Positions 1,229 through 21,048 of a DNA stretch of 64,000 nucleotides are shown here, in pieces; within the stretch, counting starts at the first letter, position 1; each line of letters begins with the position of its first letter. The stretch spans positions 5,376,001-5,440,000 of the forward strand of contig CBDCTK010000002.1 in NCBI GenBank assembly GCA_965222225.1, given 5' to 3'. The notes beneath the pieces were generated by a model. It was not told where the DNA came from. It was given only the letters and a program-made list of their open reading frames with translations, and made no database searches. Both the position numbers and the translations under genes were made by a program. The stretch comes from Candidatus Poribacteria bacterium. Lineage in GTDB: Bacteria > Poribacteria > WGA-4E > JAJDTR01.

Positions 1229-1470
1229 AGAGCCTGATTGAAAAGTACAGGAAAAGTACAGTTTGTAGGGTGCGATCAAAGGAATGAATAATGACTGCGA
1301 TAGAGATCCCCTGCGCACCAGCCTCTAAAAGCCCCAGAGTGGGATCAAGGGAGCGAATAGCCACTGCGATAGAGATTCTACAGGTATGTAGCAGCCAACA
1401 ATGAAAACATGAAAAAACTTTCTACAAATGACCAAAAATGGCTTTGCCGCCGATTATTCAAACAGGTTCT
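1229..1470. mobile_element. MITE-like element with ~14-bp terminal inverted repeats, carrying REP palindromes and two hairpin-unit insertions (1274-1310, 1343-1379)
   Basis: AGAGCCTGATTGAA ... TTCAAACAGGTTCT (12/14 inverted match); near-identical relative at 61401-61648. Confidence 0.7.
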
Positions 1471-1535: not shown

Positions 1536-2555
1536 ATGGATGTGAAGTATACTGTTCTGATGACCGATTACGCATGGCCCTCGGTTGAACCCGAGCGCAA
1601 GGTACTGTCTGAGATCGGAGCAGAACTAATCGTCGCTGAAACGGGGGCTGAAGATGAATTGGTAAGCTTGGCGCCGCAATCCGATGGCATCCTTACATGC
1701 TGGGAGCAGACGACTACCGCCGTCATCAGAGCGGCTGAGCGTTGTCAAGTCATAGGACGTTGCGGCATCGGGCTTGATAACATTGATGTGAATACTGCAA
1801 CCGAGCTTGGAATTGTTGTCACCAATGTGCCGGCATATTGCATTGACGAAGTCTCCGATCACGCGATGGCTCTGTTATTGGCGTGTGCTCGGAAGATTTC
1901 CATCTTTGACCGGGAAGCCAAACGCGGCAGTTGGGTACGAGATGTAGGTCCCCCGGTGTACCGAATTCGCGGCAAAACGCTGGGCATTATGGGGTTCGGC
2001 AAGATTGGGAAAGCCGTAGTGCCGAAAGCGAAAGCCTTCGGACTTGATGTCATTGTCTACTCGCCGAGCCTATCCTCACAGGTTGCGGAATCGTGCGGTG
2101 TCCAAAAAGTTGAACTCCCTGAGTTGCTGATGCAATCCGACTTCATCACGATTCACGCGCCGCTGAATTCTAGGACTGAAAACCTCCTAGGGAAAGAGGA
2201 ATTTCGTCAGATGAAAGAGACTGCTTATGTCATCAACACGTCGCGAGGCGGGATCATTGACACGGCCGCGCTTTGTACGGCCGTACAAAAGGGGTGGATC
2301 GCTGGAGCAGGTTTGGATGTACTGGCTGAAGAACCTCCGGCGCCGGATGAACCGCTGATTGAATTGGATAATATTGTTATTACACCACACGCCGCCTTCG
2401 CATCTGAAGAATCAACATACGACCTTGAGGTGAGTGCTGCACGTGCCGTCGCGGATGTATTGAGTGGGAAAATGCCGGGGTCCGTCGTTAACCGAGAAGT
2501 TTTGGAAAGCCCGCTGCTTCGCGCAAAAGCGCTTGGCGATCAACCGAGTGGATAG
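1536..2555 (+). CDS. D-isomer-specific 2-hydroxyacid dehydrogenase (SerA/CtBP-like)
   Basis: GIGLDNID, GIMGFGKIG Rossmann motif, INTSRGG, GLDV..EP, ITPHAA; last codons and stop lie inside a hairpin unit. Confidence 0.92.
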   Translation: MDVKYTVLMTDYAWPSVEPERKVLSEIGAELIVAETGAEDELVSLAPQSDGILTCWEQTTTAVIRAAERCQVIGRCGIGLDNIDVNTATELGIVVTNVPAYCIDEVSDHAMALLLACARKISIFDREAKRGSWVRDVGPPVYRIRGKTLGIMGFGKIGKAVVPKAKAFGLDVIVYSPSLSSQVAESCGVQKVELPELLMQSDFITIHAPLNSRTENLLGKEEFRQMKETAYVINTSRGGIIDTAALCTAVQKGWIAGAGLDVLAEEPPAPDEPLIELDNIVITPHAAFASEESTYDLEVSAARAVADVLSGKMPGSVVNREVLESPLLRAKALGDQPSG

Positions 2556-2683
2556 CGAGGGCGATAGAGATTCCCTCAAGCAAGCGAGTGATTAGCGATC
2601 AGCCGAACGAATAGTGAGGGATCAAGTGACTGAACAAGGGGCGCGATAGAGTTCCCATAGTAAATCCCGTGCGATAGAAATTC
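2538..2683 (+). repeat. nested array of GATCAA-hairpin-GCGATAG units
   Basis: One complete unit followed by three units nested inside each other. Confidence 0.9.
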
Positions 2684-2811
2684 ACTAGCCACTGCCCACT
2701 GCTTTAAGTTGCCATGCTTTCCAGAGTCGAAAACGCGTAATCCGATACCGTATATTTTTAGCGAATAAACCACTAAGTCGAGGTGCAAGGAGAGGTGCAA
2801 GGAGTTGTTAC

Positions 2812-4119: not shown

Positions 4120-4191
4120 GATCAACCGACCGAATAGGATCAAGCGAGCGATTAGCGAGTGCGATAGAGATCTTAAGGCGATAGAAATCCC
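4120..4191 (+). repeat. two nested hairpin units in a GTAG REP; segment duplicated at 20781-20852
   Basis: 71/72 nt identical to 20781-20852. Confidence 0.9.
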
Positions 4192-4375
4192 TGCGCAAAT
4201 CTGCGTTCCCTACTCTCACACACCATCGCTTTTACTAGCCACAGCCCACGTTTACCGATATCCGCTCTTCTCTTTTTGCCTCCTCATTCATCGCATCTCC
4301 GTCTCAAGCGAAGTTAAGAGCACTCTCACACCCCATAATCAGATGAAACCTCCCTCGTAGCGTCCTACATCTCGC

Positions 4376-4404
4376 TTGCTTTTGGAATGCCCTAGTGCTA
4401 TAAT
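4376..4404 (+). promoter_or_regulatory. sigma70-type promoter with extended -10
   Basis: TTGCTT-N17-TATAAT with TGn directly before the -10; ends 48 nt upstream of ATG 4453. Confidence 0.55.
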
Positions 4405-4452
4405 TGCCAAAATTGAAATGGCGTCAAATCCTAACTCGTTAAGGAAATCAAC

Positions 4453-5133: not shown

Positions 5134-5249
5134 ATTTCGGTGGCGCGGCGTTTCTTGCAGTCCGATTGTGGGAATTCTGCCGCTTGCCGCGATACCCGCA
5201 TCCTGAGGATAACCGCGTGTCTGCGAGGGATAGTTGAACGGGCTAGAAT

Positions 5250-7443: not shown

Positions 7444-7737
7444 AAACAGAATCAGAATGAGATAATGGTTTAGTTCAGTCAATAGAACCAGTCTGTAATT
7501 GGATTAAATCTATTAGGATTAGCGCACTGTGGTTTGTAATAGTGCAATTCATTGCATGTCCGGCGCGGACATTTGACAACCCGATTCATCGGGATTAGCA
7601 TTGTCCTTCTCTTCTCGGCGCGCTCCCTAACTGCTCGGTCTGGATTGGCAAATCTAAACCGCGAATCTGCCCTAAATTTTCGAAAACCGCCACGCGAAAA
7701 TCATTCTGTACACGCTATAATACCACGTACTGAATTT

Positions 7738-8499
7738 ATGCAGCCATTACCGATGGACTCCCATCCCCAATCCACAGACTCGATATACTCCATCAAACTC
7801 GATATTTTTGAAGGACCGCTGGATCTGCTGCTTCACCTGATTCAGAAGGACGAGATGGATGTTAGAGATATTCGTATTGCCGAGATTACGGAACGTTATT
7901 TGGAGTGGCTGAATCTTATGGAGCAACTGGATCTGGATGTTGCTTCGGAATTTCTGGTAATGGCGGCGACGCTGCTCTATCTCAAATCACAGAGTATTCT
8001 TCCATCCGCAACCGATCAGGATACGTTGCCAATCAAAAATCGAGAGGAGCTTGTTAAGCAACTCTTGGATTACAAGCAGTTCAAGGAAGCATCGCAAGTG
8101 CTGAATCGCTATGCCGAAGAGCATGAACAAATTTACGGACGAAGTGTTGATTCTGGTGTCGAACTGGGAGACTTGCGCGAGTTTGAGATTAAAGCAACCC
8201 TCTTTGATCTGTTATCGGCGTTTCAGCGAACCACCGAGAGGTTGCAATTTATTGATGATGATGCTTACGAGGAAATTAACGAAGAGCAAATAACCGTTGA
8301 GGAAAAGATGGAGTTCTTGGTACGCATATTGAAGGAATCCGAACAGGTGCCGTTTGAAGATCTTTTCTCCGATTTTGCAACCAAAGTCGAACAAATTGTG
8401 ACATTCTTGGCAATCTTGGAGCTGATTCGCCTGAAACGTATCATTGCCATTCAATCGGGGCAGTTTGGTCAAATATACATCGTAAGGCGCGAGGGCTGA
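7738..8499 (+). CDS. scpA: segregation and condensation protein A
   Basis: FEGPLDLLLHLI, ASEFLVMAATLL, VTFLAILEL; start placed at ATG 7738 (7753 also possible). Confidence 0.93.
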   Translation: MQPLPMDSHPQSTDSIYSIKLDIFEGPLDLLLHLIQKDEMDVRDIRIAEITERYLEWLNLMEQLDLDVASEFLVMAATLLYLKSQSILPSATDQDTLPIKNREELVKQLLDYKQFKEASQVLNRYAEEHEQIYGRSVDSGVELGDLREFEIKATLFDLLSAFQRTTERLQFIDDDAYEEINEEQITVEEKMEFLVRILKESEQVPFEDLFSDFATKVEQIVTFLAILELIRLKRIIAIQSGQFGQIYIVRREG

Positions 8500-8563
8500 G
8501 TCACAAACCGTACGGGGTTCAAGATTAAAAATCAGCCCCAACTCCCTATCAAGTATTACTGTC

Positions 8564-9151
8564 ATGATCGAAAATTCCCCCACTCCTCCCCAGGAATCTT
8601 CCTTGAGTCCAACCCAAATCAAATCAATCCTTGAAGCGATTCTCTTCGTCGCCAACGAACCAATATCGATAAAGCAATTTACTCAAGTCTTTGGAAACGT
8701 TTCAACACACGACATCCGCGAGCAACTGATGGCGCTTGAAAATGACTATCAAGCTGAAAACCGCAGTTTCCAGCTTATCGAAATTGCCAACGGTTTTCAG
8801 GTGTGTTCACGCCCTGAATACCGTGACTGGATTGAGAAATTCTATACACGTCAGGTTCGTGTCCGACTTTCGCCTCCGGCGCTTGAAACCCTTGCCATCG
8901 TCGCGTATAAGCAGCCCGTTACACGGACGGAAGTGGAAGAAATTCGAGGTGTGAACAGTGACAGCGTTGTAAATTCACTTATTCAGAAAGGGTTGATACG
9001 CATCTCGGGGCGAAAACCTGGACAAGGTCGGTCTCTCCTTTTCTCCACCACGGATAAATTCTTGGAGCAATTTGGGCTAAAAAATCTCTCCGAACTGCCG
9101 TCTATGGAAGAGATTGAGGAGATTCTACATGAAGTGCAAAACGAAGAATAG
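8564..9151 (+). CDS. scpB: SMC-Scp complex subunit ScpB
   Basis: LEAILF, LS..ALETLAIVAYKQPVTR.EVEEIRGV, TT..FL..FGL. Confidence 0.96.
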   Translation: MIENSPTPPQESSLSPTQIKSILEAILFVANEPISIKQFTQVFGNVSTHDIREQLMALENDYQAENRSFQLIEIANGFQVCSRPEYRDWIEKFYTRQVRVRLSPPALETLAIVAYKQPVTRTEVEEIRGVNSDSVVNSLIQKGLIRISGRKPGQGRSLLFSTTDKFLEQFGLKNLSELPSMEEIEEILHEVQNEE

Positions 9152-9238
9152 GAATAGCAACGGGTGGTAACCAAAAATGGGAGTACGGAAAATTCGGGAT
9201 CTCATGCTATAAACGAAATCTGGGAGCGGAAATAAGAA

Positions 9239-10573
9239 ATGAAATATGATGCATGGTTTCAATGCAGTAGCGGGTGCGACGAGCAACATTCGCTTCACGA
9301 GGTGATTTATCGTTGCACTCGCTGCGAAGGGCTACTGGAAGTCAAACACGATATTGAATCCCTGAAACGTCGAAGCCCGGCTGCTTGGATTGAACTTTTC
9401 GAAAGGCGCTACATGGGAACGCAATACCCCTACGGCAGCGGTGTCTGGGGGAAGAAAGAGCTCGTTTGTCCAAGTATTGATGATGAGAACATTGTCTCGA
9501 TGTTCGAGGGAGGTACCAACCTTTTCTGGGCGACACGGTTCGGAAAGGAAATTGGGGTCTCCGACCTATGGATTAAGCAATGTGGCATCAGTCATACCGG
9601 CTCCTTCAAGGATCTGGGAATGACGGTGCTGGTTTCTATGGTCAAACAGATTGTCGCGAACGGTACCGACATTCGCGCTGTTCTCTGTGCCTCTAGCGGT
9701 GACACTTCTGCCGCACTCGCCGCTTATGCCGCAGCGGCGGGAATCCCCGCGATAATCCTTTTGCCGCAAGCGAAAGTCTCGCCCGCGCAGCTCTTCCAGC
9801 CGCTTGCCAACGGAGCAATTACACTTTCCCTCAAAACCGATTTTGATGGCTGCATGGCAATAGTTCAAAAACTGAGCGTGCGTCCGGATTTTTATCTTGC
9901 CAACTCTATAAATTCTCTCCGAATCGAAGGACAGAAGACGATTAGCATCGAAATTGTCCAACAATTCGATTGGGAGGTGCCAGACTGGGTAATAATTCCG
10001 GGAGGGAATCTGGGAAATGTGACGGCTTTAGGACTCGGGTTTCTGATGATGCGGGATCTCGGGATTATCAACGACCTGCCGCGGATTGTTTGTGCGCAGT
10101 CCGCCAAAGCCAATCCCCTGTATCAAAGTTATCTCGGAGACTTCAGTGAATTCAAACCGATGGCTGCACAGCCAACCGTAGCCAACGCAATCCAGATTGG
10201 AAATCCTGTTTCCGCCAAGAGAGCGATAAACATCCTGAAACGATTCAATGGAATCGTGGAACAAGCGACGGAGGACGAGTTGGCGAACGCCGCTGCAAGA
10301 GCGGATCGAACAGGGCTATTCAACTGCCCGCATACGGGTGTGGCGCTCGCCGCCCTTCTGAAACTCGTTGAGAGAAAGGTAATCCGATCTGACGAACGCG
10401 TGGTTGTAATCTCGACGGCAAACGGCCTAAAATTCCCCGATTTTAAAATTCAATATCATAACGGTGAATTGGACGAAGTTAATCCTCAATATGTAAATAT
10501 TCCACTGGGACTTGAGCCAGACTACGACCAAATAATGAAGGCGATTGATGTTTGTTTGGCGAAAGCGGAGTAA
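9239..10573 (+). CDS. thrC: threonine synthase
   Basis: [45 protein letters not shown]. Confidence 0.95.
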
Positions 10574-10774
10574 GGACCTGTTTGAAGATCTAGTTGGAGT
10601 AGGGTGCGCACTGTGTTCAAGCGAGTGGATAACGAGTGCGACGGAGATTTCTATTCAATCATCAAATCGAAAATGGGATCTTGACAGGCGATAGCAGGTG
10701 ACAACAGAAACATGAAAAAAGCCCCTCCTCAAATGACCAAAAATGGCCTTGTCACCTATTATTCAAACATACTC
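10574..10774. mobile_element. MITE-like element (same family as 1229-1470) with a REP and a degenerate hairpin unit (10615-10651)
   Basis: GGACCTGTTTGAA ... TTCAAACATACTC; shared 3' segment AAATGACCAAAAATGGC...TTATTCAAAC. Confidence 0.6.
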
Positions 10775-10779
10775 AGAGA

Positions 10780-11340
10780 CTACGGCGAGTTTTTCAGTTT
10801 ATTTCCGAACTCTTTCTTTAATTTCTCCAGCTTGGGATTAATGGCAATCTGGCAATACGGTTGATATGAGTTTAGGGCATAATAATTCTGGTGATATTCT
10901 TCCGCAACGTAGAATTCGGCGGCGGGCACAATCTCGGTAACAATCGGATTCTGCCACAATCCTGCAGCGTCCGTCTCCCGTTTGGAATTTTCCGCGCCTG
11001 TTTTCTGTTTTTCATTGTGATAGATAATCGCCGAGCGGTACTGTGTACCGACATCTGCGCCTTGCCGATTCAAAGTAGTCGGATCGTGCGTTCGCCAGAA
11101 GACGTGGAGTAAGTCCGAGAAGGATATAACCCCGGGATCAAATGTGATTTGTACCACCTCTGCATGACCGGTCATTCCTGTACAAACCTGTTGATACGAC
11201 GGGTTTTGAACCGTACCCCCGGCATATCCGGAGATAACTTCATGCACACCCTTCAATTCTAGAAAAACCGCTTCAACGCACCAAAAACACCCGGCCCCGA
11301 GCGTTGTCGCCTCCAACTGATCTGACATTGTCTTCATCAT
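10780..11340 (-). CDS. msrA: peptide-methionine (S)-S-oxide reductase
   Basis: GAGCFWC, SGYAGG, TGHAEVV, NRQG.DVGTQYRS, AEEYHQNY. Confidence 0.97.
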   Translation of the reverse strand: MMKTMSDQLEATTLGAGCFWCVEAVFLELKGVHEVISGYAGGTVQNPSYQQVCTGMTGHAEVVQITFDPGVISFSDLLHVFWRTHDPTTLNRQGADVGTQYRSAIIYHNEKQKTGAENSKRETDAAGLWQNPIVTEIVPAAEFYVAEEYHQNYYALNSYQPYCQIAINPKLEKLKKEFGNKLKNSP

Positions 11341-11426
11341 CCTTCCACTTCACATCCCGAATATCCTGTTTGAAATTCAATTTGGAATAGCCCGAATTGC
11401 TCCGAAACCGAGTATTTTCCTGAAAA

Positions 11427-11463
11427 GAGATCTCTATCGCACTCCTTATTCAGTCGCTTGATC
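11427..11463 (-). repeat. single hairpin unit, the only one on the minus strand
   Basis: Reverse complement reads GTAGCAACC-GATCAA-GC GA CT GAATA AG GA GT-GCGATAG-AGATCTC. Confidence 0.9.
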
Positions 11464-11663
11464 GGTTGCTACATCCCTTCCATTCTTCCCATCTTCCATC
11501 CTTCTCCATTCTCTTTTCTATTGAACTCCAAATCCATCTCTGTTAAAATTCACGCAGTCGTCTTGTATAATGAATACACACCAGCTTGTTACTAATACCA
11601 TTTCGCTTGAATAATAGTGCATATGATGTTTTGATTATATCATTCACTTTCTCCGTAGGCGGG

Positions 11664-11719
11664 GATCAAACGAGTGAACAACGATCAACTGAGTGATTAA
11701 CGAAGGCGATAGAGATCCC
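11664..11719 (+). repeat. 5' unit fragment plus a complete hairpin unit in a GTAG REP
   Basis: GTAGGCGGG-GATCAA...AGATCCC-CTTGCCCCGCC. Confidence 0.88.
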
Positions 11720-11844
11720 CTTGCCCCGCCGACTTTGCGCGGAGATAAGACTTCCTACTCTGCCCATACAATTTTCTTTACTTAATCCGCGTAATCAATG
11801 CACTTGAATTTTAGAGAAGTGGTATAATCTGTCATGAGGAAAAA

Positions 11845-13146
11845 ATGCTAGAGCACAATACCCCGCGAGCGTTTCACGTGATGACGAAACCGATAGGACC
11901 AATCTGTAACCTCGATTGCGAATACTGTTTCTACCTGGATAAGGAAAAACTCTATCCGAAAACGCGCTCCTTCCGGATGACAGATGAAATCTTGGAAAAC
12001 TATGTCCGCCAATACATTGAGGCACAGCAGGTAAACGAAATCACCTTCGCCTGGCAAGGCGGCGAACCAACGCTGATGGGAGTCGATTTTTTCCGACGCG
12101 CTGTTGAATACCAGCAAAAATATCGGCGTGCGGGCACTCACATCCAGAACACATTTCAAACCAACGCTACTCTCATTGACGATGAGTGGGCGGTTTTTCT
12201 CAAGCGAAACAAGTTCTTGGTTGGCGTCAGCATTGACGGTCCGCCCGAAATACACGATAAATACCGATATGACAAAGGTGGAAGACCATCCTCCCACGAT
12301 GTTCTTAGAGGACTTGAGTTCTTTCAGAAACACCGCGTGGATTACAACGTGCTCTGTGTATTGAACCGTTACAATGCAGACTATCCGCTTGAGTTGTATC
12401 GCTATTTCAAGAAGATAGGCGCCCAATTCATTCAATTTATCCCGGCTGTCGAACATTTCACCGGCACACAAGTCTCCGAGCTCTCGGTCCAAGCCAAGCA
12501 ATACGGTAAGTTTCTTTGCGCCGTCTTTGACGAATGGGTTGTGAACGACATCGGGAAAATCTTCGTGCAAATCTTCGACATTGCACTTGAGGCATGGGTA
12601 GGCTATAATCCAAGCCTCTGCATTTTCAGCGAAACATGCGGCGATGCGATGGCGATTGAGCACAACGGCGATCTCTACTCGTGCGACCACTTCGTTTTTC
12701 CGGAATACCATCTTGGAAATGTTGCCGACACGCCAATTGAAGAGATGGTGGATTCACCGTTCCAGAGAAAATTTGGGACAGACAAGCGAGACACGCTGCC
12801 CCAATACTGCCGAGACTGCGAAGTCCGTTTCGTATGCAACGGCGGATGTCCGAAGAATCGCTTCATCAAGACGCCTTCCGGCGAGGATGGGTTGAATTAC
12901 CTTTGCGCCGGCTACAAGATGTTCTTCAACCATATCGACGAACCGATGAAACTGATGGCAACCGCCCTACAAGCCGGAAAACCCGCCGATAGCGTTATAC
13001 CCCTGATGCGAGAAAAGAAACACGGACCAGTCTCATCAAGTCGGATCCAAACTGCAACGACACCCCAAAGAGTTGGGAGAAACTCACCCTGTCCATGCGG
13101 TAGCGGCAAGAAATACAAACAATGCTGCCTGGGAAACAGCACATAG
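11845..13146 (+). CDS. anaerobic sulfatase maturase (radical SAM/SPASM) with C-terminal SEC-C motif
   Basis: CNLDCEYC, WQGGEP, SPASM cysteines (YSCDH, CRDC..C.GGC), GRNSPCPCGSGKKYKQCC; extended -10 TGGTATAAT at 11820-11828. Confidence 0.95.
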   Translation: MLEHNTPRAFHVMTKPIGPICNLDCEYCFYLDKEKLYPKTRSFRMTDEILENYVRQYIEAQQVNEITFAWQGGEPTLMGVDFFRRAVEYQQKYRRAGTHIQNTFQTNATLIDDEWAVFLKRNKFLVGVSIDGPPEIHDKYRYDKGGRPSSHDVLRGLEFFQKHRVDYNVLCVLNRYNADYPLELYRYFKKIGAQFIQFIPAVEHFTGTQVSELSVQAKQYGKFLCAVFDEWVVNDIGKIFVQIFDIALEAWVGYNPSLCIFSETCGDAMAIEHNGDLYSCDHFVFPEYHLGNVADTPIEEMVDSPFQRKFGTDKRDTLPQYCRDCEVRFVCNGGCPKNRFIKTPSGEDGLNYLCAGYKMFFNHIDEPMKLMATALQAGKPADSVIPLMREKKHGPVSSSRIQTATTPQRVGRNSPCPCGSGKKYKQCCLGNST

Positions 13147-13248
13147 GTCCTTGTCAGACGCTTAACGACACTCACGCGCTTGGCATTAGAACTCTCCGTA
13201 TGTAACCAACCACCACCTTCCAAACTCACTTATCCGTTCCGCCGCCCG

Positions 13249-13932
13249 TCAACCGAAATGCCTCCGTGCGTATCCTAACCTCTCCGGTTCTCCGATATCT
13301 ATCCAATCAATCTTCGTGTTCAGCACATATAAGTTCGGTACATGCGGAAAAACATCCCGTTCGATGGAAAAAACATCCCGATTCGGGAAGTACCCCGTAA
13401 TTGACTGTGACAGCAGATATATTGCTCCGTTGGCATACCCTGACCGTTTCGTCGCCTGTTTTTCATGAAAGGCGATAACCCTCCCACTTTCATCCGACAC
13501 AATCTCGCCATAGGAACTGATGTTTTCAGCAAACACGCCAAGTAGCAATCCATCCATTTCTGAGCGAAAATTCCGCGACAAATTGGAAAGCGGAAAATCC
13601 TTCAGTAAAATGTCGCCGTTCAGCAAAAAAAACGGCGAGGAGGAAACATACGGCATCGCGTTCTTTATTGCGCCGCCCGTTCCGAGCCTCGTTTCTTCCC
13701 TCGCATAGTGAATGCGTATCCCCTGATTCCTCTCGCCGACCGCGGAGTAGAGCACATCATGAAGGTGTCCCGATGCTAGGACAACCTCATCAACACCGGC
13801 TTCCTTCAAGAGACGGAGTTGGTAATCAAGCACCGTACAGTCGCCTATTTCCAGCAAAATCTTCGGCACATGCTCCGTGATGCTACCCAACCGCGATGAC
13901 AACCCGCCGCAGAGAATAATTGCTTGCACCAA
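13249..13932 (-). CDS. sugar-phosphate nucleotidyltransferase (NTP_transferase, HddC-like)
   Basis: AIILCGGLSSRL, VPK.LL, LGTGGA, LNGD, WIDIG.PE. Confidence 0.9.
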   Translation of the reverse strand: MVQAIILCGGLSSRLGSITEHVPKILLEIGDCTVLDYQLRLLKEAGVDEVVLASGHLHDVLYSAVGERNQGIRIHYAREETRLGTGGAIKNAMPYVSSSPFFLLNGDILLKDFPLSNLSRNFRSEMDGLLLGVFAENISSYGEIVSDESGRVIAFHEKQATKRSGYANGAIYLLSQSITGYFPNRDVFSIERDVFPHVPNLYVLNTKIDWIDIGEPERLGYARRHFG

Positions 13933-13959
13933 TACCCTCTATCATCCCGAACCAATTTT

Positions 13960-13980
13960 GTAGGGTGCGCACTGCGCACC
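13960..13980 (+). repeat. intact GTAG-type REP palindrome GTAGGGTGCGCACTGCGCACC
   Basis: Same 21-mer at 30803, 35935, 42430, 54260 (1 mismatch) and 61424; a degenerate hairpin unit follows at 14004-14051. Confidence 0.85.
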
Positions 13981-14174
13981 AGCCTTTAAAAGCGACGGTG
14001 TGCGATCAACCGAGCGAATAACAAGCACGACAGTGTTTCCATAGAGATTCCACCAGCCTTTGAAAGCGCGAGCGGTGCGATTGGTATATCACATGTATTG
14101 CAGGCGACAACCAAAGCGTGAAAAGACCTCTCCCAAAATGCCCAAAAAATAGCTTTGCCGCCCATTACACACAG

Positions 14175-14558
14175 TTACTCCTCCGCCACAAATTCAAAGG
14201 CATTTTGAATGTGTTCAAGTTTAGTGGGTGTAGACTTTGAGGAAAGGAAAACCGCAACAACATCAAAGCGGCAGGGAACATCCAATAGATTGTTGGCTTG
14301 GAGATAGCTCAGCGCGAGTTTGGATATCTGTTTCTGCTTGGCAGGCGTAACAGCCGCCTGCGGAACTCCAAATTTGAGGGTGCGCCGCGTTTTAACTTCC
14401 ACAAACACAATTCGCTTTCCCTGTTTGACAATAAGATCTATTTCACCGGAGCGCGAGCGGTAGTTACGCTCAAGAATTTGATAACCCCGGTCCGTGAGGT
14501 ATTCAGCGGCGAGTTCCTCTCCAATTCTCGCAACCTCTTTAGACTGATTCATTACCAA
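14175..14558 (-). CDS. yraN: YraN family (UPF0102) putative endonuclease
   Basis: GEELA..YL, ILERNYR...GEIDLI, VFVEVKTR, CRFDVV. Confidence 0.95.
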   Translation of the reverse strand: MVMNQSKEVARIGEELAAEYLTDRGYQILERNYRSRSGEIDLIVKQGKRIVFVEVKTRRTLKFGVPQAAVTPAKQKQISKLALSYLQANNLLDVPCRFDVVAVFLSSKSTPTKLEHIQNAFEFVAEE

Positions 14559-14586
14559 TCCCTACGCCTCAGCTTCCATTACACAT

Positions 14587-15240
14587 CTAACACATGTCGG
14601 AGATAGGTTTGAAACTGCGCCGGTGAATGGGACAAGGCCCGTGCTGGGCAATTGCCTGAAGATGCTGAGCCGTGCCATAACCCTTATGTTGTCGAAAGCC
14701 GTATCCCGGATAGATTTCGTCGAATTCAACCATCAATCGATCTCGCGTTACTTTTGCGATGATCGATGCCGCGGCAATGGACTGGCTGAGAGAGTCGCCT
14801 TTCGGAATCGCTTGTGCAGGTGTAGAAATGCGGGGAAGTTGTGTGCCATCGACAAGCACATAATCCAGGGGTGGGACTATTTGTTCTACCGCATCTTGCA
14901 TTGCCTGCAGCGTAGCCTGCAGGATGTTCACTTTGTCGATAACTGTATTGCTAATGTGACTGACCTTTACCGCAATCGAAGTGCGCTGAATCTCGTCATA
15001 TAAGCGATCGCGTTGCTTTGGCGTCAACTGCTTTGAATCTGTCACCCCTTGGATGACGCAATCCACAGGAAGAATTACCGCCGCTGCTACCACCGGACCG
15101 GCTAACGGGCCACGTCCGGCTTCGTCAATGCCAGCAATGTGTCGATAACCTTCTCTTTGTAAAGCCAGTTCAATCTCTTGAATCTCGTAGTCACCTTCCC
15201 ATTCTGCTGCACTGGTGGCGAGTCGTCCCGGCATCGACAC
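14587..15240 (-). CDS. rnhB: ribonuclease HII
   Basis: AGIDEAGRGPLAGPVVAAA, DSK.L, VDG, IAAASIIAKVTRD, HKGYGT, HRRSF. Confidence 0.97.
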   Translation of the reverse strand: MSMPGRLATSAAEWEGDYEIQEIELALQREGYRHIAGIDEAGRGPLAGPVVAAAVILPVDCVIQGVTDSKQLTPKQRDRLYDEIQRTSIAVKVSHISNTVIDKVNILQATLQAMQDAVEQIVPPLDYVLVDGTQLPRISTPAQAIPKGDSLSQSIAAASIIAKVTRDRLMVEFDEIYPGYGFRQHKGYGTAQHLQAIAQHGPCPIHRRSFKPISDMC

Positions 15241-15367
15241 AACTTCACACCCAAAACCAAAGATTAAGAACCCGTTGGAAAACTCATTTCGAGTAGAACC
15301 ACCGCTCTGAAACTAACCTTTATTCAAGATTAAATCCCTGCACCAGTCTTTGCAAGCCCCAGAGTGG

Positions 15368-15404
15368 GATCAACTGAGCGGATAGCGAAGGCGATAGAGA
15401 TCTT
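15368..15404 (+). repeat. single hairpin unit
   Basis: GATCAA-CT GA GC GGATA GC GA AG-GCGATAG-AGATCTT after AAGCCCCAGAGTGG. Confidence 0.9.
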
Positions 15405-15733
15405 AAAGGTTGGAGGATGTTAGAATCCGCCGGCGACTTTTCCCGATGCATCGGGCTGGGTGAAACACGAGTTCGAGTCTACAGGGAAGACTTTTTCAAT
15501 GGCCAACCAAAAAGACTAGATGGTTAAAACTTCACCCGCTTTTCTGGAACACTTGATTGACACCGTCTGTTGTACTGCTTAAATGTACAAAGTCAAACTA
15601 AGACCTCGCCCTTTCATCTGTGCTAAAATCTGTAACGGTCAGGCAGATATGAGACACTCCGAACTGTTCCCCTCCCGACCCTACGGAAACAAACTCCTGC
15701 GATTGGTGACGCATTGCAAAGCGTAGGGGTTGG

Positions 15734-15840
15734 GATCAACTGACTGGATAAGGAAGGATCAAGGGAATGGATAATGACCGATCAAGCGAATGAATAATGA
15801 GCGCGATAGCAAATCCCAATAGAACTCCCATAGAGATCCC
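15734..15840 (+). repeat. three nested hairpin units in the loop of REP GGTTGGG/CCCAACC
   Basis: Three 5' halves followed by three 3' tails. Confidence 0.92.
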
Positions 15841-15962
15841 CCCAACCCGTTGGGTGCGGTATTCGCATTGGGAGGTGTTTCACATAAATGTCAACACGCC
15901 CTAATACAACTTTCCCCAAAACCCGCTGCGAGTAAGATTGCGCTAAGGCAGGCGGTACGAAA

Positions 15963-16322
15963 TCACTTCTGCGTTGCGAAGCGCCTTCGTTCGCGAACTC
16001 TTGCCGAATTTCCGGTTCTATCTCGCAGATAGTACAATTTGGCGCGTCGCACCGCGCCATATCGGAGCACCTCGATACTCTCGATGTTCGGCGAATGTAA
16101 TGGAAAAGTTCTCTCACTCCCTTCTCCAAAAGCCACACGTCGGACCGTAAAAGTTTCACTTAAGCCACCATTGGAGCGGCCTATCACTGTTCCCTCGTAT
16201 GCCTGAATACGTTCCTTCTCGCCCTCCCGAATCTTTGTGTTGACTCGCACCATATCACCTGGGCCGAATTCCGGGAAACCCTCCTTTATATACTCGCTCT
16301 CGACAGATTCAATTAGGTTCAT
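15963..16322 (-). CDS. rplS: 50S ribosomal protein L19
   Basis: [39 protein letters not shown]. Confidence 0.98.
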
Positions 16323-16449
16323 CGTTTGTCTATCCTTTCATTTGGTATTCTTTAAAATTCGGCTCACACGAGTTTTTCATTCATGGTGACGGCAGCGCAT
16401 GTATCCCAAAGAACGTCAATCGAAAAACTCGTCGAAATGCTTCAACGCA

Positions 16450-17184
16450 TCAAATAGATCCGTTGGTGCATGATGCGTGTAAAAAGTCGGTGTCTTCTTC
16501 CGTCAACTCAATTTCTTTGAGTAAGTCCGGACGTCGCGCGGCAGTTCGTCTCAGCGACTCCTCATACTTCCAGCGCATAATCTTCTCGTGGTGCCCGCTT
16601 AACAGAACCTCGGGTACCTTCATTCCCTCAAAGTCTGCGGGACGTGTGTAGTGCGGGTGATCTAACAACTGTTGGCTAAAAGAATCGTACTGAGCCGATT
16701 CATAGTCGCCCAACACGCCGGGTAGCACCCGTCCAACTGCATCAACCAGTACAAGAGCTGGAATTTCTCCGCCACTCAGCACATAATCGCCAATAGAAAT
16801 CTCGTCTGTAACCAATTTCTGACGTACACGCTCATCAATCCCTTTATAGTGTCCGCAAATTAGAACTATGTGAGTTTCAAGGGAAAGTGCCTCGACAAGC
16901 CGTTGATTGCACGGCTTTCCTTGGGGAGTTAAATAAATGACGCGAGTGTTTGACTGTGGACTCAATGCCCTGATAGCTGCGAACAGTGGCTCCGGCTTTA
17001 GAATCATCCCTGCGCCGCCACCGTACGGATAATCGTCAACCGTTTGATGTCGATCGCTCGCAAAATCTCGGAGATTGTGAACGTTAACTGTCAAAAATCC
17101 TGCGTCTTGAGCGCGCTTTAAGATGCTCACTTGCAGGGCAGGGATTATAATCTCCGGAAACAGAGCAATGACGTCAATTTTCAT
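16450..17184 (-). CDS. trmD: tRNA (guanine-N1)-methyltransferase
   Basis: VDDYPYGGGAGMILKPEP, CGHYKGIDER, SIGDYVLSGGE, PHYTRP, VPEVLLSG. Confidence 0.98.
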   Translation of the reverse strand: MKIDVIALFPEIIIPALQVSILKRAQDAGFLTVNVHNLRDFASDRHQTVDDYPYGGGAGMILKPEPLFAAIRALSPQSNTRVIYLTPQGKPCNQRLVEALSLETHIVLICGHYKGIDERVRQKLVTDEISIGDYVLSGGEIPALVLVDAVGRVLPGVLGDYESAQYDSFSQQLLDHPHYTRPADFEGMKVPEVLLSGHHEKIMRWKYEESLRRTAARRPDLLKEIELTEEDTDFLHASCTNGSI

Positions 17185-17617
17185 CTGGTGTGATAGAAGT
17201 TTGCAGCGCCCACTCGTTAATCTGAATCACGCGTCCGTCCTTGACAATAATCTCCGCCTGAGACAGTTTGGAGCGAATGTCATCCCCCACCTCGATTTTC
17301 ACAGGTGCATCATATGTGCCGCTAGCGAAAAACGAATCAATTTCCAATTGTTTCACCTGACTGAGTTGTTGCTTAAGGTTTTCGAGCGCCTGTTCCTGCT
17401 TTCCGCGCTCTTGACTGATTTCCTCCCGCAACTGATTCACGCGATGAGGCATCTGCTTTTGCGCTTCGGCAATCAACCGGCGGCTCTGGAACTCTTCCTG
17501 TTCAAGCCACTGCCCGATTTGGCTTATCGCGTGCTCAAGCTCCTTGGTCAATTGCGACTTGAAACTCTCCGTGACGACATTTTTCAGTATTACCGGTCGC
17601 TTTACGATAACAGCCAT
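17174..17617 (-). CDS. ylqD: YlqD family protein
   Basis: KRPV..K.VVTE.FK N-terminus, coiled coil, VGD....L...EIIVKDG C-terminus; position in the ffh-rpsP-trmD cluster. Confidence 0.85.
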   Translation of the reverse strand: MAVIVKRPVILKNVVTESFKSQLTKELEHAISQIGQWLEQEEFQSRRLIAEAQKQMPHRVNQLREEISQERGKQEQALENLKQQLSQVKQLEIDSFFASGTYDAPVKIEVGDDIRSKLSQAEIIVKDGRVIQINEWALQTSITPDEN

Positions 17618-17779
17618 CTTCCACTCTCATCAATTCGGTGAGCAAAGCCAAGCAGCCTCGGCAGCTCGATCAAGACGATAAGGCGGTGAAAGTCTAACTT
17701 AATCACAATGTTTCCTTCCTTGCTTTCAGCTTCCATCTGGAAGAACTTAATCAATTTAGGCTTAAACTCCTGTCCCGCT

Positions 17780-18025
17780 TTACTCTTTACTGGACTCAAC
17801 GAGTTCAAGCACAATCCTTTTATTCGCCTTAATCCCTGAGGCAAACAAGATGTTCCGTATCGATTTGAGTGTACGCCCATGTTTGCCGATAATTTTTCCC
17901 AAGTCTTCCTCGGCAACGCTCAATTCGAGGATTGTCACCTTTTCCCCTACAACTTCATGGACTTTAACCTGATCGGGTTGATCTACGAGGGATGTTGCAA
18001 TATATTCAATCAGATCCTTGAACAT
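17780..18025 (-). CDS. khpA: KH-domain RNA-binding protein KhpA (YlqC)
   Basis: LIEYIA.SLVD.PD, DLGKIIGKHGRT. Confidence 0.93.
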   Translation of the reverse strand: MFKDLIEYIATSLVDQPDQVKVHEVVGEKVTILELSVAEEDLGKIIGKHGRTLKSIRNILFASGIKANKRIVLELVESSKE

Positions 18026-18111
18026 AAAATACCCTGAGCAACATATCCAATCTAGTGATTGTCGCTTATGCCGCGGCGAATAGATTCATTTCGGATTTCG
18101 GATTACAATTG

Positions 18112-18519
18112 TCAGTTGGATGATTCGCTCGGTGTTTCCGGCGTAGTGTCTGCGGATTCACTATCGTCTGCGGCAGAGGCTGTCTCATCTGTCGGCGGGG
18201 CGGCATCCCCCTCCGTCGAAGGCGGTTCCTCTTCTCGCGTCGGAACGGGCTTGCCCAAACGTTCCGCGGTAAACTTCTCCCAAATGCCGGCTCGCGATAA
18301 CAGGTTCTTTGCCGTGTCCGATGGCTGTGCCCCCCGTTTCAGCCACTTCAAGACCCTGTCTTCATCAATGACAACTTCAGCCGGGTCGGTTAATGGATTA
18401 TAATGACCTAAGCGTTCGAGAAACCGCCCATCTCGCTGAGCGCGTGCATCAGCAGCTACCAATCTGTAAAACGGACGTTTCTTTCTTCCGTGGCGTTGAA
18501 GTCTTATTCTAACAGCCAA
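18112..18519 (-). CDS. rpsP: 30S ribosomal protein S16 with acidic C-terminal extension
   Basis: [40 protein letters not shown]. Confidence 0.97.
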
Positions 18520-18705
18520 AAATAACTTCCTCCTTATTGCGGTTATAGACTAAAAGACGTTTCAAACGTTCAATTAACTTGGAATAGTAGTAAGCATACT
18601 CCGTATGCCGTATCTCTTGTGCAAATTGTGATACGGCGGAGCGTGCCTATCACTGCTTACCGTTCGGCTTGGATTTCCGAATCCAAGCTTTGACAGATGG
18701 TTACT

Positions 18706-20088
18706 CTATCGTGACTTGCGCTTCTTCCGCCGCTTCAAGTTCTTCCGATTCTTTCCGGGTGACTTAAGTCCAATCTGCGGCATCCCCATCATTGTTGTCT
18801 GTTGCTTGACCATGCGATTCATAAACTTGAGTTGATCGAACAGTTGGTTGACTTGGCGAACATCGGTGCCACTTCCATTCGCAATCCGCATACGGCGGCT
18901 GCGATCAAGAATACTCGGATTCCCACGCTCCATTGGAGTCATGGACTGAATGATCGCCTTCGCATAATTCAGCTGATCTTCATCGGGCTTCATGCCCTTG
19001 ATTGGCAGCTTGTTCATGCCTGGAATCATGTCCATTAGCTGATCGAGAGGTCCCATGTTCTTGAGTTGCTCAAGCTGCATAAGCAAATCGTCGAAATCCA
19101 GCCCATGCTTTTGACTCAGTTTCCGTTCAAGTTCTTGCGCTTGGTCGTCGCTGAAGATGGTTTCCGCCCTTTCAAGCAAGGTCGCGAAATCACCTTCACC
19201 CAAGATGCGCGATGCCATGCGATCCGGGTGGAATTCCTCTAGCGCTGTCGGAACAATCTTCTCGCCAACCCCGACGAACTTAATCGGCTTGTGCGTCACG
19301 GCGCGAATCGAAAGCGCCGCGCCGCCGCGCGCATCGCCATCCAGCTTTGTGAGAACTACGCCGTCAATGTCCAAGCTATTATTGAAATGTTCGGCGATGT
19401 TCACCGCATCCTGTCCCGTCATCGCGTCAACAACGAGCAAGATTTCGGTCGGATTGACCTCAGCCTTTATGTTGCGGAGCTCCTCCATCAACTCTTCGTC
19501 AATCGCCAAGCGTCCCGCAGTGTCAACGATAACGAAGTTATTCCCGCGGTTTAGCCCCTGTTTAACAGCTTCATTTACAATGGCAACAGGAGAAACATCT
19601 GTTCCCATCGAAAACACTGGGACCTCAATCTGTTCACCAAGCACCTCCAACTGCTTAATCGCCGCTGGGCGGTAAACATCCGCTGCAACCAAAAGCGGAT
19701 TTCGACCTTCCGAACGAAATCTCAGTGCCAGTTTCGCAGCGGCGGTTGTCTTTCCGGAGCCTTGCAAGCCGACCATCATGACGACTGTTGGGCCGCTCGG
19801 TGCAATGTTAATCTTCGCCGCCTGAGTCCCCATCAACTTGGTCAGTTCGTCGCCTATAATCTTGGCAATCTGTAACTCCGGCGTTAAGCTGCCGAGCACC
19901 TGTTGACCGAGCGTTTGCTCCTTGACATCCTCTATGAAGTCGCGCGCGACCTTGAAGTTTACGTCCGCCTCTAGCAAAGCCCTGCGCACATCTCGCAGGG
20001 CATCGGCGACGTTCTTCTCTGTCAGCTTGCCTTGACCCGCAATCTTCTTTAAGGTGCTCTGCAACCGCTCGGTCAAACTTTCAAACAT
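18706..20088 (-). CDS. ffh: signal recognition particle protein
   Basis: ALLEADV, GLQGSGKTT, DTAGR, TKLDGDARGGAALS, M domain RIANGSG. Confidence 0.98.
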   Translation of the reverse strand: MFESLTERLQSTLKKIAGQGKLTEKNVADALRDVRRALLEADVNFKVARDFIEDVKEQTLGQQVLGSLTPELQIAKIIGDELTKLMGTQAAKINIAPSGPTVVMMVGLQGSGKTTAAAKLALRFRSEGRNPLLVAADVYRPAAIKQLEVLGEQIEVPVFSMGTDVSPVAIVNEAVKQGLNRGNNFVIVDTAGRLAIDEELMEELRNIKAEVNPTEILLVVDAMTGQDAVNIAEHFNNSLDIDGVVLTKLDGDARGGAALSIRAVTHKPIKFVGVGEKIVPTALEEFHPDRMASRILGEGDFATLLERAETIFSDDQAQELERKLSQKHGLDFDDLLMQLEQLKNMGPLDQLMDMIPGMNKLPIKGMKPDEDQLNYAKAIIQSMTPMERGNPSILDRSRRMRIANGSGTDVRQVNQLFDQLKFMNRMVKQQTTMMGMPQIGLKSPGKNRKNLKRRKKRKSR

Positions 20089-20780: not shown

Positions 20781-20852
20781 GATCAACCGACCGAATAGGA
20801 TCACGCGAGCGATTAGCGAGTGCGATAGAGATCTTAAGGCGATAGAAATCCC
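20781..20852 (+). repeat. two nested hairpin units, duplicate of 4120-4191
   Basis: One substitution relative to 4120-4191; flanks also homologous. Confidence 0.9.
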
Positions 20853-21048
20853 TGCGCAGATCTGCGTTCCTTATCCTCTACTCGCCATCGCATTTACTGA
20901 TCGTTGGCGACTGTTCTTGCCGGTTTCCATCGGTAACCATCAAATCCCCAATTTTCCCCCTTCCCATCGCTTTTCATTTCTTCGTCTTGCCTAGTCTTAC
21001 ACTCTTTGCCCAGCCTTGTCACGGAGGCATACCTCACCACTATTATCG

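What the first reader, a model, noticed from the sequence alone, without database searches (positions are those of the whole stretch)
15734..15840. Russian-doll nesting: units insert into earlier units after a G, deleting about 2 nt
Seen: at 15734 three 5' halves (CT GA CT GGATA AG GA AG; GG GA AT GGATA AT GA CC; GC GA AT GAATA AT GA GC) are followed by GCGATAG CAAATCCCA, ATAG AACTCCC and ATAG AGATCCC. This is what successive insertion into G^CGATAG with loss of CG would produce. The array at 2581-2683 has the same three-level architecture. In the arrays I could parse, a new ATCAA starts at a position where the host unit has a G (core positions 5, 7, 12, 13, 14, or the first G of GCGATAG). Inference: the leading G belongs to the target, there is no target-site duplication, and about 2 nt are lost (1-3 allowing for tail-length ambiguity). 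That pattern is unlike DDE transposition, Cas1 spacer acquisition or slippage.
Basis: partly seen in the sequence, partly recalled or inferred. Interest (0 to 1): 0.88.

Follow-up and report, generated by a model that had tools for sequence, protein, structure and literature searches.

The report
Tiny nested hairpin mobile repeats
A roughly 37-base hairpin repeat present about 1,350 times in this sponge-symbiont (Poribacteria) genome behaves as one of the smallest known mobile elements, inserting after a G into other hairpin repeats and into its own copies to build Russian-doll arrays.

Summary
Window 15735-15840 holds three complete heads (ATCAA + NN-GA-NN-GRATA-NN-GA-NN), one GCGATAG and three tails. 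The array sits in the loop of a GTAG-type hairpin that is uninterrupted at the orthologous site in four same-genus genomes.

Genome-wide there are about 1,350 heads. The four variable stem pairs covary strongly: 574 of 659 units are fully paired, against about 81 expected.

My strict parser found 273 nested junctions:
- The base before the inner ATCAA is G in 258.
- Halves of interrupted hairpins pair across the insert better than shuffled halves (169 of 193 cells; shuffles 144 ± 3.7).
- Net target loss is 1 nt (72) or 2 nt (57) in 143 junctions that could be scored.
- There is no target duplication and no excision footprint.

Units are strictly co-oriented with their host hairpins (79:1). Their orientation follows replication-type GC skew, not gene direction.

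The family fills two Poribacteria genera and has no Rfam match. It most resembles the cyanobacterial small dispersed repeats (SDRs), whose mechanism is also unknown. The enzyme is not identified; nicking of single-stranded DNA by an HUH/Y1-type enzyme is my leading inference.

The parts
15723..15734 (+). 5' arm of the host GTAG-type hairpin (GTAGGGGTTGGG). The last G is the base after which the outer unit begins.
   Evidence: The orthologous sites L101, L103, L105 and L106 carry GTAGGGGTT(T)GGG-TG/TT-CCCCAA... with no interruption.
15735..15757 (+). Outer unit, 5' part: ATCAA plus a complete hairpin (CT GA CT GGATA AG GA AG), then the host G after which unit 2 starts.
15758..15780 (+). Middle unit, 5' part: ATCAA plus hairpin (GG GA AT GGATA AT GA CC), then G.
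15781..15818 (+). Innermost complete unit: ATCAA, hairpin (GC GA AT GAATA AT GA GC), GCGATAG, and tail CAAATCCC(A).
15819..15829 (+). Remainder assigned to the middle unit: ATAG plus tail AACTCCC. The CG of GCGATAG is missing.
   Evidence: class with 23 host nt before the insert.
15830..15840 (+). Remainder assigned to the outer unit: ATAG plus tail AGATCCC.
15841..15848 (+). 3' arm of the host hairpin (CCCAACCC).
2539..2575 (+). Single complete unit. It supplies the last codons and the stop of the upstream dehydrogenase reading frame.
2579..2685 (+). Second three-level array. Outer head AGCAA... is broken after G18 (2579-2597). Middle head is 2598-2620. Inner complete unit is 2621-2656. The next pieces are ATAG + TAAATCCC (2657-2668), then the outer remainder GT-GCGATAG-AAATTCAC (2669-2685).
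   Evidence: The outer GC...GT stem halves pair across the insert.
4121..4194 (+). Two-level nest inside a GTAGGG context. The host hairpin is broken after GG (18 host nt before the insert), and the remainder AG-GCGATAG-AAATCCC follows the inner tail. A near-identical copy lies at about 20782-20855.
11665..11720 (+). Head fragment (19 host nt) plus a complete unit inside the hairpin GTAGGCGGGG...CTTGCCCCGCC. The outer unit has no 3' remainder.
   Evidence: The same hairpin, GTAGGCGGGGCATCTTGCCCCGCC, is uninterrupted at another locus in G009 and G001.
1262..1313 (+). GTAGGGTGCG | unit | CTGCGCACC: a filled copy of the common REP-like (repetitive extragenic palindrome) hairpin GTAGGGTGCGCACTGCGCACC.

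Best explanation
The unit is ATCAA, a 17-nt hairpin (NN-GA-NN-GRATA-NN-GA-NN), GCGATAG, and a 7-8 nt tail ending TCCY. In total it is about 36-38 nt. I read it as a non-autonomous, strand-specific mobile element that spreads by copy-in insertion.

Shown:
- It is an insertion relative to empty paralogous and orthologous hairpins.
- It enters immediately 3' of a host G, often at G^C. This happens at the loop edge or 3' side of hairpins. The hosts are GTAG-type REP-like hairpins, a second hairpin family (GCCCCAGNGGGG) and its own copies.
- It always has the same polarity as the host hairpin.
- It replaces 1-2 (rarely 0 or 3) host nucleotides and makes no target duplication.
- Repeated insertion into resident units gives the Russian-doll arrays.
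- No footprints of excision were found.
- The hairpin is selected on the ATCAA strand only.
- Orientation follows replication-type GC skew, not transcription.

Inferred:
- Insertion happens on single-stranded DNA at the replication fork and starts from a nick 3' of G in a folded hairpin.
- A host HUH/Y1 enzyme (IS200-like or REP-associated tyrosine transposase, RAYT-like; five such genes are present) is the most likely nickase and strand-transferase.
- The small, variable loss at the 3' junction reflects how the second junction is resolved.
- Covariation among copies persists because only copies with an intact hairpin are copied again.
For: Insertion against empty sites:
- The orthologous hairpin is uninterrupted in 4 of 9 same-genus loci examined. 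The other 5 could not be aligned.
- The common REP-like hairpin has 166 empty copies. All 19 copies filled by a single unit carry 9 nt where the empty copies carry 4.
- With arrays included, site 1 shows 9 nt in 22 of 27 (empty: 4). Site 2 shows 9 nt in 21 of 22 (empty: 3). The second hairpin shows 9 nt in 26 and 10 nt in 15 of 41 (empty: 4).

Target and nesting:
- The target base is G in 258 of 273 nested junctions and in 883 of 1053 outermost heads, against 25% G in the genome.
- Stem halves pair across inserts in 169 of 193 cells, against 144 ± 3.7 in shuffles.
- Net loss is 1 nt in 72 and 2 nt in 57 of 143.
- Neighbouring heads are no more alike than random pairs (3.85 against 4.25 of 10 variable positions; 0 of 53 identical), so the arrays are not slippage products.
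- Zero footprints were found beside 604 intact units, 157 empty REP-like hairpins and 22 empty second-family hairpins.

Polarity and structure:
- Polarity inside REP-like hairpins is 79 same to 1 inverted.
- G.T wobble pairs number 268 against 32 A.C, and the tandem G.A is conserved, so the structure forms on the ATCAA strand.
- Covariation: 574 of 659 units fully paired against 81 expected. In the window, 95.7% against 59.2%.
- Orientation against skew gives an odds ratio of 0.15 (p 2e-25). With coding-only, gene-strand-corrected skew it is 0.20 (p 7e-21), and 0.23 for arrays without GTAG nearby.
- Empty REP-like hairpins show the same bias.
- There is no bias with flanking gene direction (442 against 385).

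Candidate enzymes:
- Y1 genes are present. One passes the IS200/IS605 cut-off.
- That gene is flanked by inverted second-family hairpins in G000 and 5 relatives, with units in some of those hairpins.
- RAYT enzymes nick folded single-stranded REPs and do strand transfer (passages of PMC8266576).
Against: - No enzyme is tied to the units. The intact RAYT-like gene has a close orthologue only in G005, plus a fragment in G009.
- The IS200-like family also occurs in genera without units: g6 13 of 16, g3 9 of 19.
- Known IS200/IS605 insertion is precise, without target loss (recalled).
- RAYTs cleave at C|T or C|A, not at G|N as the junctions here require.
- The ATCAA strand lies mostly on the C-rich strand. 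That strand is the leading-strand template, not the lagging-strand template that IS608-type elements use (recalled).
- Nearest-neighbour folding of the array gives no signal (z 0.55 and 0.26).
- 111 of 273 nested heads lack a 3' remainder that could be parsed.
- 10% G.T wobble would also suit an RNA structure.
- No present-day insertion polymorphism was seen, because short-read contigs break at the arrays.
Confidence: 0.68

Rival explanations
1. RNA-mediated spread. The unit is transcribed, its RNA hairpin is recognised, and a DNA copy is made at a nick (target-primed reverse transcription) or after reverse splicing. This is what was proposed for the cyanobacterial SDRs.
For: - The structure is strand-specific and tolerates G.U-type wobble (268 wobble against 32 A.C).
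- One exact junction and one variable junction with small deletions is typical of target-primed copying (established knowledge of non-LTR elements such as R2; recalled).
- No excision footprints were found.
- A contig from an RNA library spans the 2539-2690 array (record 10). DNA carry-over in that library cannot be excluded.
- One reverse-transcriptase gene is present.
Against: - Orientation is unrelated to flanking gene direction (442 against 385) but tied to replication-type skew.
- The only RT hit is a single 670-aa stand-alone protein with a weak Pfam score (27.5 bits).
- No Rfam family matches.
Confidence: 0.17
2. The units are not independent elements. They are elaborated loops of GTAG-type REPs, and the whole REP-plus-unit composites are what the RAYT moves. 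On this reading, nesting is REP-in-REP insertion.
For: - 356 of 1053 outermost heads have GTAG within 20 nt upstream.
- Polarity is 79:1 with the GTAG strand.
- The skew bias is the same as for empty REP-like hairpins.
- REP families with large structured loops are described (passage of PMC3733652).
- One hairpin 17-mer has 47 copies, and that hairpin is recurrent in the GTAGGGTGCG context in the listing.
Against: - 561 of 1053 outermost heads fall in none of the host classes I defined.
- Arrays without GTAG nearby show the same skew bias.
- Nested junctions lie inside units, where no GTAG is present.
- The same REP-like site holds units with different hairpins.
Confidence: 0.1
3. The units are static structural or regulatory repeats. 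The arrays arise in place by slippage, unequal recombination or gene conversion, without transposition.
For: - Heads without 3' remainders (111 of 273) need secondary deletions between the GCGATAG/ATAG direct repeats.
- Similar composite arrays recur in several genomes.
Against: - Orthologous and paralogous empty sites exist.
- Neighbouring heads are no more alike than random pairs, and 0 of 53 are identical.
- Pairing across inserts holds.
- Counts vary greatly between related genera: 389-929 per genome in g1 against 0 in 82 genomes of family f2.
Confidence: 0.05

Closest known systems
Small dispersed repeats (SDR1-SDR8) of Nostoc and Anabaena. Source: Elhai et al. 2008, Genome Res 18:1484. 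The paper is not held here, so I recall its abstract. I saw short passages about it in PMC4390886, PMC5861425 and PMC3116915.
   Same: - Very small dispersed repeats.
- A shared hairpin supported by compensatory changes.
- Insertion at precise positions inside other short repeats: SDR5 sits between the 3rd and 4th nucleotides of the octamer palindrome HIP1.
- Self-nesting of some families (recalled).
- Enzyme unknown.
   Different: - A different phylum. [quoted passage not shown]
- Longer: about 37 nt against 21-27 nt.
- A conserved tandem G.A inside the stem.
- The target is a single G at hairpins, with loss of 1-2 nt.
- A replication-linked strand bias.
- Sequence likeness could not be tested, because no SDR sequence was at hand.
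REP/REPIN elements and their RAYT (TnpA-REP) Y1 transposases
   Same: - Short, high-copy extragenic hairpins acting as single-stranded, strand-specific substrates.
- The hosts here are GTAG-tagged palindromes of 7-9 bp with 3-nt loops, like group 3 REPs.
- Y1 genes flanked by inverted hairpins are present.
   Different: - The unit itself has no GTAG tag, and its stem has only 4 Watson-Crick pairs plus 2 G.A.
- Units are mostly not in inverted doublets: 80 of 791 arrays have mixed strands.
- Nested self-insertion and small target loss are not described for REPs in the passages I read.
IS200/IS605 elements and their miniature derivatives (palindrome-associated transposable elements)
   Same: - No target duplication.
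- Insertion 3' of a defined target base.
- Hairpin recognition on one strand.
- Orientation linked to replication.
- An IS200-family gene is present.
   Different: - Those elements have hairpins at both ends, a 4-5 nt target, and precise insertion and excision (recalled).
- Here there is one hairpin, a one-base target, a 1-2 nt loss and no excision footprints.
Twintrons and nested group II/III introns
   Same: Element-within-element architecture built by successive insertion.
   Different: - No intron-like size or motifs, and no Rfam match.
- No link to the direction of transcription.

Membership tests
Cyanobacterial SDR elements | Very small (21-27 nt) dispersed repeat | tested here: not met
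   The unit is about 36-38 nt: 22-nt head, 7-nt GCGATAG and a 7-8 nt tail. The size range of SDRs is recalled.
Cyanobacterial SDR elements | Common hairpin supported by compensatory changes | tested here: met
   574 of 659 units are fully paired against 81 expected. In the window, 73 cells change on both sides against 17.9 in shuffles.
Cyanobacterial SDR elements | Copies inserted within copies (nesting) | tested here: met
   273 nested junctions. Of 1028 complete inner units, 226 have one enclosing head, 21 have two and 2 have three.
Cyanobacterial SDR elements | Sequence relationship to SDR1-8, and occurrence in Nostocaceae | not testable with these tools
   The paper and its sequences are not held. 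All 80 listed hits of the unit pattern are Poribacteria.
REP / REPIN (RAYT-mobilised) | GTAG (or similar) tetranucleotide at the 5' foot of the palindrome | tested here: not met
   The unit begins with ATCAA. GTAG belongs to the host hairpins, in 356 of 1053 outermost contexts.
REP / REPIN (RAYT-mobilised) | Cognate RAYT gene flanked by the repeat in inverted orientation | tested here: inconclusive
   Two of the five Y1 genes have units on both sides in opposite orientation. For the IS200-like gene, the conserved flanks in 6 genomes are the GCCCCAGNGGGG hairpins, and units are present in only some of them.
REP / REPIN (RAYT-mobilised) | Co-occurrence of the repeat family with one RAYT lineage | tested here: not met
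   Two of the five Y1 proteins were tested, and neither tracks the unit-bearing genera g1 and g4. The other three Y1 genes were not tested.
IS200/IS605-derived miniature elements | Subterminal hairpins at both ends | tested here: not met
   There is one hairpin per unit.
IS200/IS605-derived miniature elements | Insertion 3' of a fixed target, with no duplication and no loss | tested here: not met
   The features '3' of a G' and 'no duplication' are met. However, 1-3 nt are lost in 135 of 143 junctions.
DDE-type MITE (miniature inverted-repeat transposable element) | Terminal inverted repeats and a target-site duplication | tested here: not met
   The ends ATCAA and ...TCCY are not inverted repeats. 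Filled and empty sites show loss, not duplication.
Any Rfam RNA family | Match at the gathering score | tested here: not met
   0 matches in the 64-kb window.

The most novel reading that the evidence does not exclude
These units are a new class of minimal mobile DNA with its own insertion chemistry. A roughly 37-nt hairpin would be copied into a nick made 3' of a G in any suitably folded hairpin, replacing 1-2 nucleotides. The enzyme, or a fork-associated process, would not belong to the known transposase mechanisms. Nesting plus later deletions would shuffle stems and generate the combinatorial hairpin diversity (256 different 17-mers in 659 units). The same mechanism could underlie the long-unexplained cyanobacterial SDRs.
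Probability: 0.25. Interest if true: 0.85.

Novelty: new variant of a known kind. Interest (0 to 1): 0.62.

Why it matters
Elements this small test the lower size limit of what can be mobilised in a genome. How the comparable cyanobacterial SDRs move has been open since 2008.

This family offers unusually clean material for that question:
- hundreds of copies per genome in complete long-read assemblies;
- host hairpins present in both empty and filled states;
- an exact 5' junction (after G) and a measurable 1-2 nt loss at the 3' junction;
- strict polarity;
- a replication-linked strand bias.

These are concrete constraints that a biochemical test with the genome's few Y1 enzymes could meet or fail.

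On the practical side, the units and their arrays break short-read assemblies of Poribacteria. They also rewrite gene ends: at window 2539 a unit provides the last codons and the stop of a dehydrogenase reading frame.

Tried and rejected
- Laying public runs on window 1-20000. All four runs are short-read contigs that stop at the arrays. The listed 'joints' link different unit copies kilobases apart and are repeat artefacts. There is no usable evidence on polymorphism or RNA processing. The only point is that an RNA-library contig spans 1422-4166.
- Testing last-in-first-out against first-in-first-out order of tails in arrays with complete hairpins, using hairpin-tail lineage association. Of 31 events, 5 favoured last-in-first-out, 2 first-in-first-out and 24 tied. 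The test is underpowered.
- Thermodynamic folding of the 15722-15858 stretch as DNA, both strands. z was 0.55 and 0.26, so there is no signal. Support for the hairpin rests on covariation only.
- Phyletic link to a Y1 enzyme. None was found with two of the five Y1 proteins.
- The reverse-transcriptase hit. It is a single stand-alone 670-aa protein and was not pursued.
- Viral contigs scanned for the unit pattern: 0 hits.
- Rejected readings: CRISPR (no regular spacers), DDE MITE (no inverted termini or duplication) and slippage.
- Literature. Searches found no description of this repeat in Poribacteria. Supplementary files were not consulted. Elhai 2008 could not be read.
- In the window alignment I gave 42 of the 53 matches. 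Left out were 8 heads that are interrupted or truncated before completion (2579, 4121, 11665, 20782, 28477, 43807, 47654, 52704), 2 weak minus-strand matches (16327, 21305), and 52804 by oversight.
- My nested parser demanded exact ATCAA at head starts and zero mismatches at conserved positions of the remainder. 'Unresolved' therefore mixes true truncations, mutated copies and more complex arrays.
- My gene calls are crude open reading frames of at least 120 aa.

Full report
**What is at the coordinates.**

Read directly, 15735-15840 consists of three complete heads. Each head is ATCAA plus a 17-nt core NN-GA-NN-GRATA-NN-GA-NN, and the heads are separated by a single G. They are followed by one GCGATAG and three tails: CAAATCCCA, then ATAG-AACTCCC, then ATAG-AGATCCC.

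The array at 2579-2685 is also three-level. Its outer head (AGCAA variant) is cut inside the hairpin after the G of the second GA. Its remainder, GT-GCGATAG, follows the two inner tails, and GC...GT pair across the insert.

**It is a real, abundant, structured repeat.**

- The head pattern occurs 53 times in the window against 1.19 expected. 50 of the 53 are on the + strand.
- The genome is 5.70 Mb in two contigs. It holds 1,350 heads at up to one substitution.
- The consensus is [R-S-G] ATCAA NN GA NY GRATA RN GA NN GCGATAG ARATCCY.
- Among 659 strictly complete units, all four variable pairs are Watson-Crick or G.T in 574. Shuffling 5' and 3' halves gives about 81. There are 256 different 17-mers.
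- In 42 window heads, 95.7% of cells pair against 59.2 ± 2.8 in shuffles (0 of 500). 73 cells are changed on both sides against 17.9. Slid controls pair in only 21-51% of cells.
- G.T wobble outnumbers A.C by 268 to 32, and the internal 5'-GA/5'-GA pair is invariant. The structure is therefore selected on the ATCAA strand as a single strand.
- Nearest-neighbour folding gives no signal.
- Rfam has no match.

**Organism and spread.**

- A scan of one genome per species returned at least 99 stretches. All 80 listed are Candidatus Poribacteria.
- In 121 genomes of the phylum, the strict unit pattern has 389-929 hits per genome in the window's genus (8 of 8 with the window's genome) and 128-152 in genus g4 of another family (4 of 4).
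- Three other genera have 1-2 hits. None was found in 82 genomes of family f2. The reversed control pattern gave 0 everywhere.
- The head-G-head junction typical of nesting also occurs in g4, at 22-40 per genome.
- No hit was found in viral contigs.

**The arrays are insertions.**

The 15735 array lies between GTAGGGGTTGGG and CCCAACCC. At the orthologous intergenic site, four same-genus genomes carry GTAGGGGTT(T)GGG-TG/TT-CCCCAA... uninterrupted. The other five loci examined could not be aligned there.

The commonest host is a GTAG-tagged palindrome, GTAGGGTGCGCACTGCGCACC, with 166 empty copies.

| Host site | Filled: nt after the last ATAG | Empty: nt at the same place |
|---|---|---|
| REP-like hairpin, site 1, single units | 9 in 19 of 19 | 4 |
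| REP-like hairpin, site 1, arrays included | 9 in 22 of 27 | 4 |
| REP-like hairpin, site 2 (3' arm) | 9 in 21 of 22 | 3 |
| Second hairpin, GCCCCAGNGGGG^CGACAGGT | 9 in 26 and 10 in 15, of 41 | 4 |

With a 7-nt tail this means loss of CA, C, and CG or C respectively. Nothing is duplicated.

Units inside the GTAG hairpin are co-oriented with it 79 to 1. The palindromic stem offers the same local sequence on both strands, so recognition is strand-specific.

Of 1,053 outermost heads:
- 356 have GTAG within 20 nt;
- 72 sit in the second hairpin type;
- 52 sit in the junction of an inverted unit;
- 561 are in other contexts;
- the preceding base is G in 883.

A strict parser found 273 non-duplicate junctions where a head is cut short by the next ATCAA.

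- The host length before the insert is 23 nt (112 junctions), 12 (46), 19 (37), 17 (29), 18 (21) or 10 (17).
- The base before the inner ATCAA is G in 258, A in 14 and C in 1.
- The G is the host's own. At variable host positions it pairs with its partner base (listing).
- For 76 junctions inside hairpins, the 5' part and the remainder after the insert form 169 of 193 possible pairs. Shuffling within class gives 144 ± 3.7, with a maximum of 156 in 1000 shuffles.
- With the tail defined as ending at the first TC[CT][CT], 143 junctions could be scored:

| Net host change | Junctions |
|---|---|
| loss of 1 nt | 72 |
| loss of 2 nt | 57 |
| loss of 3 nt | 6 |
| no change | 3 |
| net gain | 5 |

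- Neighbouring heads are no more alike than random pairs, and none of 53 pairs is identical. That rules out slippage.

Results against a simple picture:
- 111 of the 273 heads have no remainder the parser could find. These are probably explained by later deletion between the GCGATAG/ATAG direct repeats and by more complex arrays.
- For arrays with complete hairpins, such as 15735, the order of the tails could not be tested independently.
- Similar three-level arrays with the same middle unit occur at unrelated loci in G002, G007 and G009. Composites are therefore probably also copied as wholes.

**Clues to mechanism.**

- No excision footprints exist. There are 0 hairpins followed by GATAG or GGATAG beside 604 intact ones. 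There are 0 REP-like hairpins lacking CA or C beside 157 empty ones, and 0 for the second hairpin beside 22. This fits copy-in rather than cut-and-paste.
- Orientation is unrelated to flanking genes (442 co-directional against 385 opposite).
- Orientation is strongly tied to local GC skew: odds ratio 0.15, p 2e-25. With coding-only, gene-strand-corrected skew the odds ratio is 0.20, p 7e-21. It is 0.23 for arrays without GTAG nearby.
- The ATCAA strand lies mostly on the C-rich strand. Empty GTAG hairpins show the same bias.
- The genome has five Y1 (HUH) transposase genes. One passes the IS200/IS605 cut-off and two are nearer to REP-associated transposases.
- The IS200-like gene is flanked by inverted copies of the second hairpin in this genome and in five relatives. 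Units are present in some of those copies and not in others.
- RAYT enzymes are known to nick folded single-stranded REPs and to join strands, with GTAG acting like a guide (passages of PMC8266576).

I therefore favour a single-stranded-DNA, nick-initiated copy-in that uses an HUH-type enzyme. This step is inference, and several points weigh against it:
- The two Y1 proteins tested do not track the units across genera.
- RAYT cleavage sites are C|T or C|A, not after G.
- Known IS200/IS605 insertion loses nothing.
- The strand bias is opposite to the IS608 rule as I recall it.

An RNA route cannot be excluded.

**Comparison with what is known.**

The nearest described things are the small dispersed repeats of Nostoc (Elhai 2008). 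I could not read that paper. I recall from its abstract the 21-27 nt size, the shared hairpin with compensatory changes, the self-nesting of SDR1 and SDR4, and a proposed RNA intermediate.

Passages in citing papers confirm two points:
- SDR5 inserts precisely inside HIP1.

The present family shares the architecture and the behaviour. It is in another phylum and is longer. It carries a conserved tandem G.A and targets a G at hairpins with loss of 1-2 nt. It also shows a replication-linked bias.

It fails the defining features of REPs (no GTAG of its own), of IS200/IS605 miniatures (one hairpin, target loss), of DDE MITEs and of any Rfam family. My literature searches found no description of it.

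**Verdict.**

I rate it a new variant of a known but poorly understood kind of element. Interest is moderate to high, because it gives sharp, testable constraints on how such minimal elements move.

Noticed in passing
window 1262-1475 (also about 56480-56640 and 61490-61600): A composite intergenic repeat of about 200 nt. It consists of the GTAG hairpin, AGCCTCTAAAAGCCCCAGAGGGGCGGAAGG..., a second GCCCCAGCGGGGCGACAGGTATGTAGCAGCC hairpin, and then CAACAATGAAAACATGAAAAAACTT...CCGATTATTCAAACAGG. There are dozens of copies genome-wide, with units filling the hairpins in some copies and not in others (one search lists 76 rows). It looks like a larger non-autonomous element.
   Followed up: partly
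G000:C2:3080258-3080728 (outside the window); loci L118-L123: An IS200/IS605-family Y1 transposase gene. It is flanked upstream by 2-3 tandem GCCCCAGNGGGG hairpins and downstream by inverted ones, in this genome and in five same-genus genomes. This is a REPtron-like arrangement (Y1 transposase gene flanked by inverted repeat hairpins) whose cognate repeat is probably that hairpin.
   Followed up: partly
window 2536-2560: The dehydrogenase reading frame 1536-2555 runs into a unit. Its last residues (...GDQPSG) and its TAG stop come from ATCAACCGAGTGGATAG. Orthologues in G005 and G001 end differently and have no unit. G009, G002 and G003 have different units at the same spot.
   Followed up: partly
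window 15489-15604: Another repeat of about 115 nt, unrelated to the units, with many copies at 82-92% identity in all same-genus genomes (query positions 689-804).
   Followed up: no
G000:C2, whole contig: GC skew changes sign many times along the 5.6-Mb contig instead of forming two arms, and gene-strand majority only partly follows it. This suggests many rearrangements or assembly joins.
   Followed up: no
G000:C2:1.52-1.58 Mb: A region extremely dense in GTAG hairpins preceded by CTATAT, interleaved with units. Some hairpins are inserted directly after GCGATAG or inside unit heads, so the GTAG hairpins also seem to insert into units.
   Followed up: no
G000:C2:4499560-4501572 (locus L117 514-2526, minus strand): A stand-alone 670-aa protein with a weak reverse-transcriptase domain and a YVDD-type motif. 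It is possibly a defence-type reverse transcriptase.
   Followed up: no
window 1-20000, public runs X3, X8, X12, X15: Short-read contigs of independent samples end at the unit arrays (for example at 15371/15395 and 15781/15788). These repeats therefore fragment short-read assemblies of this organism.
   Followed up: partly
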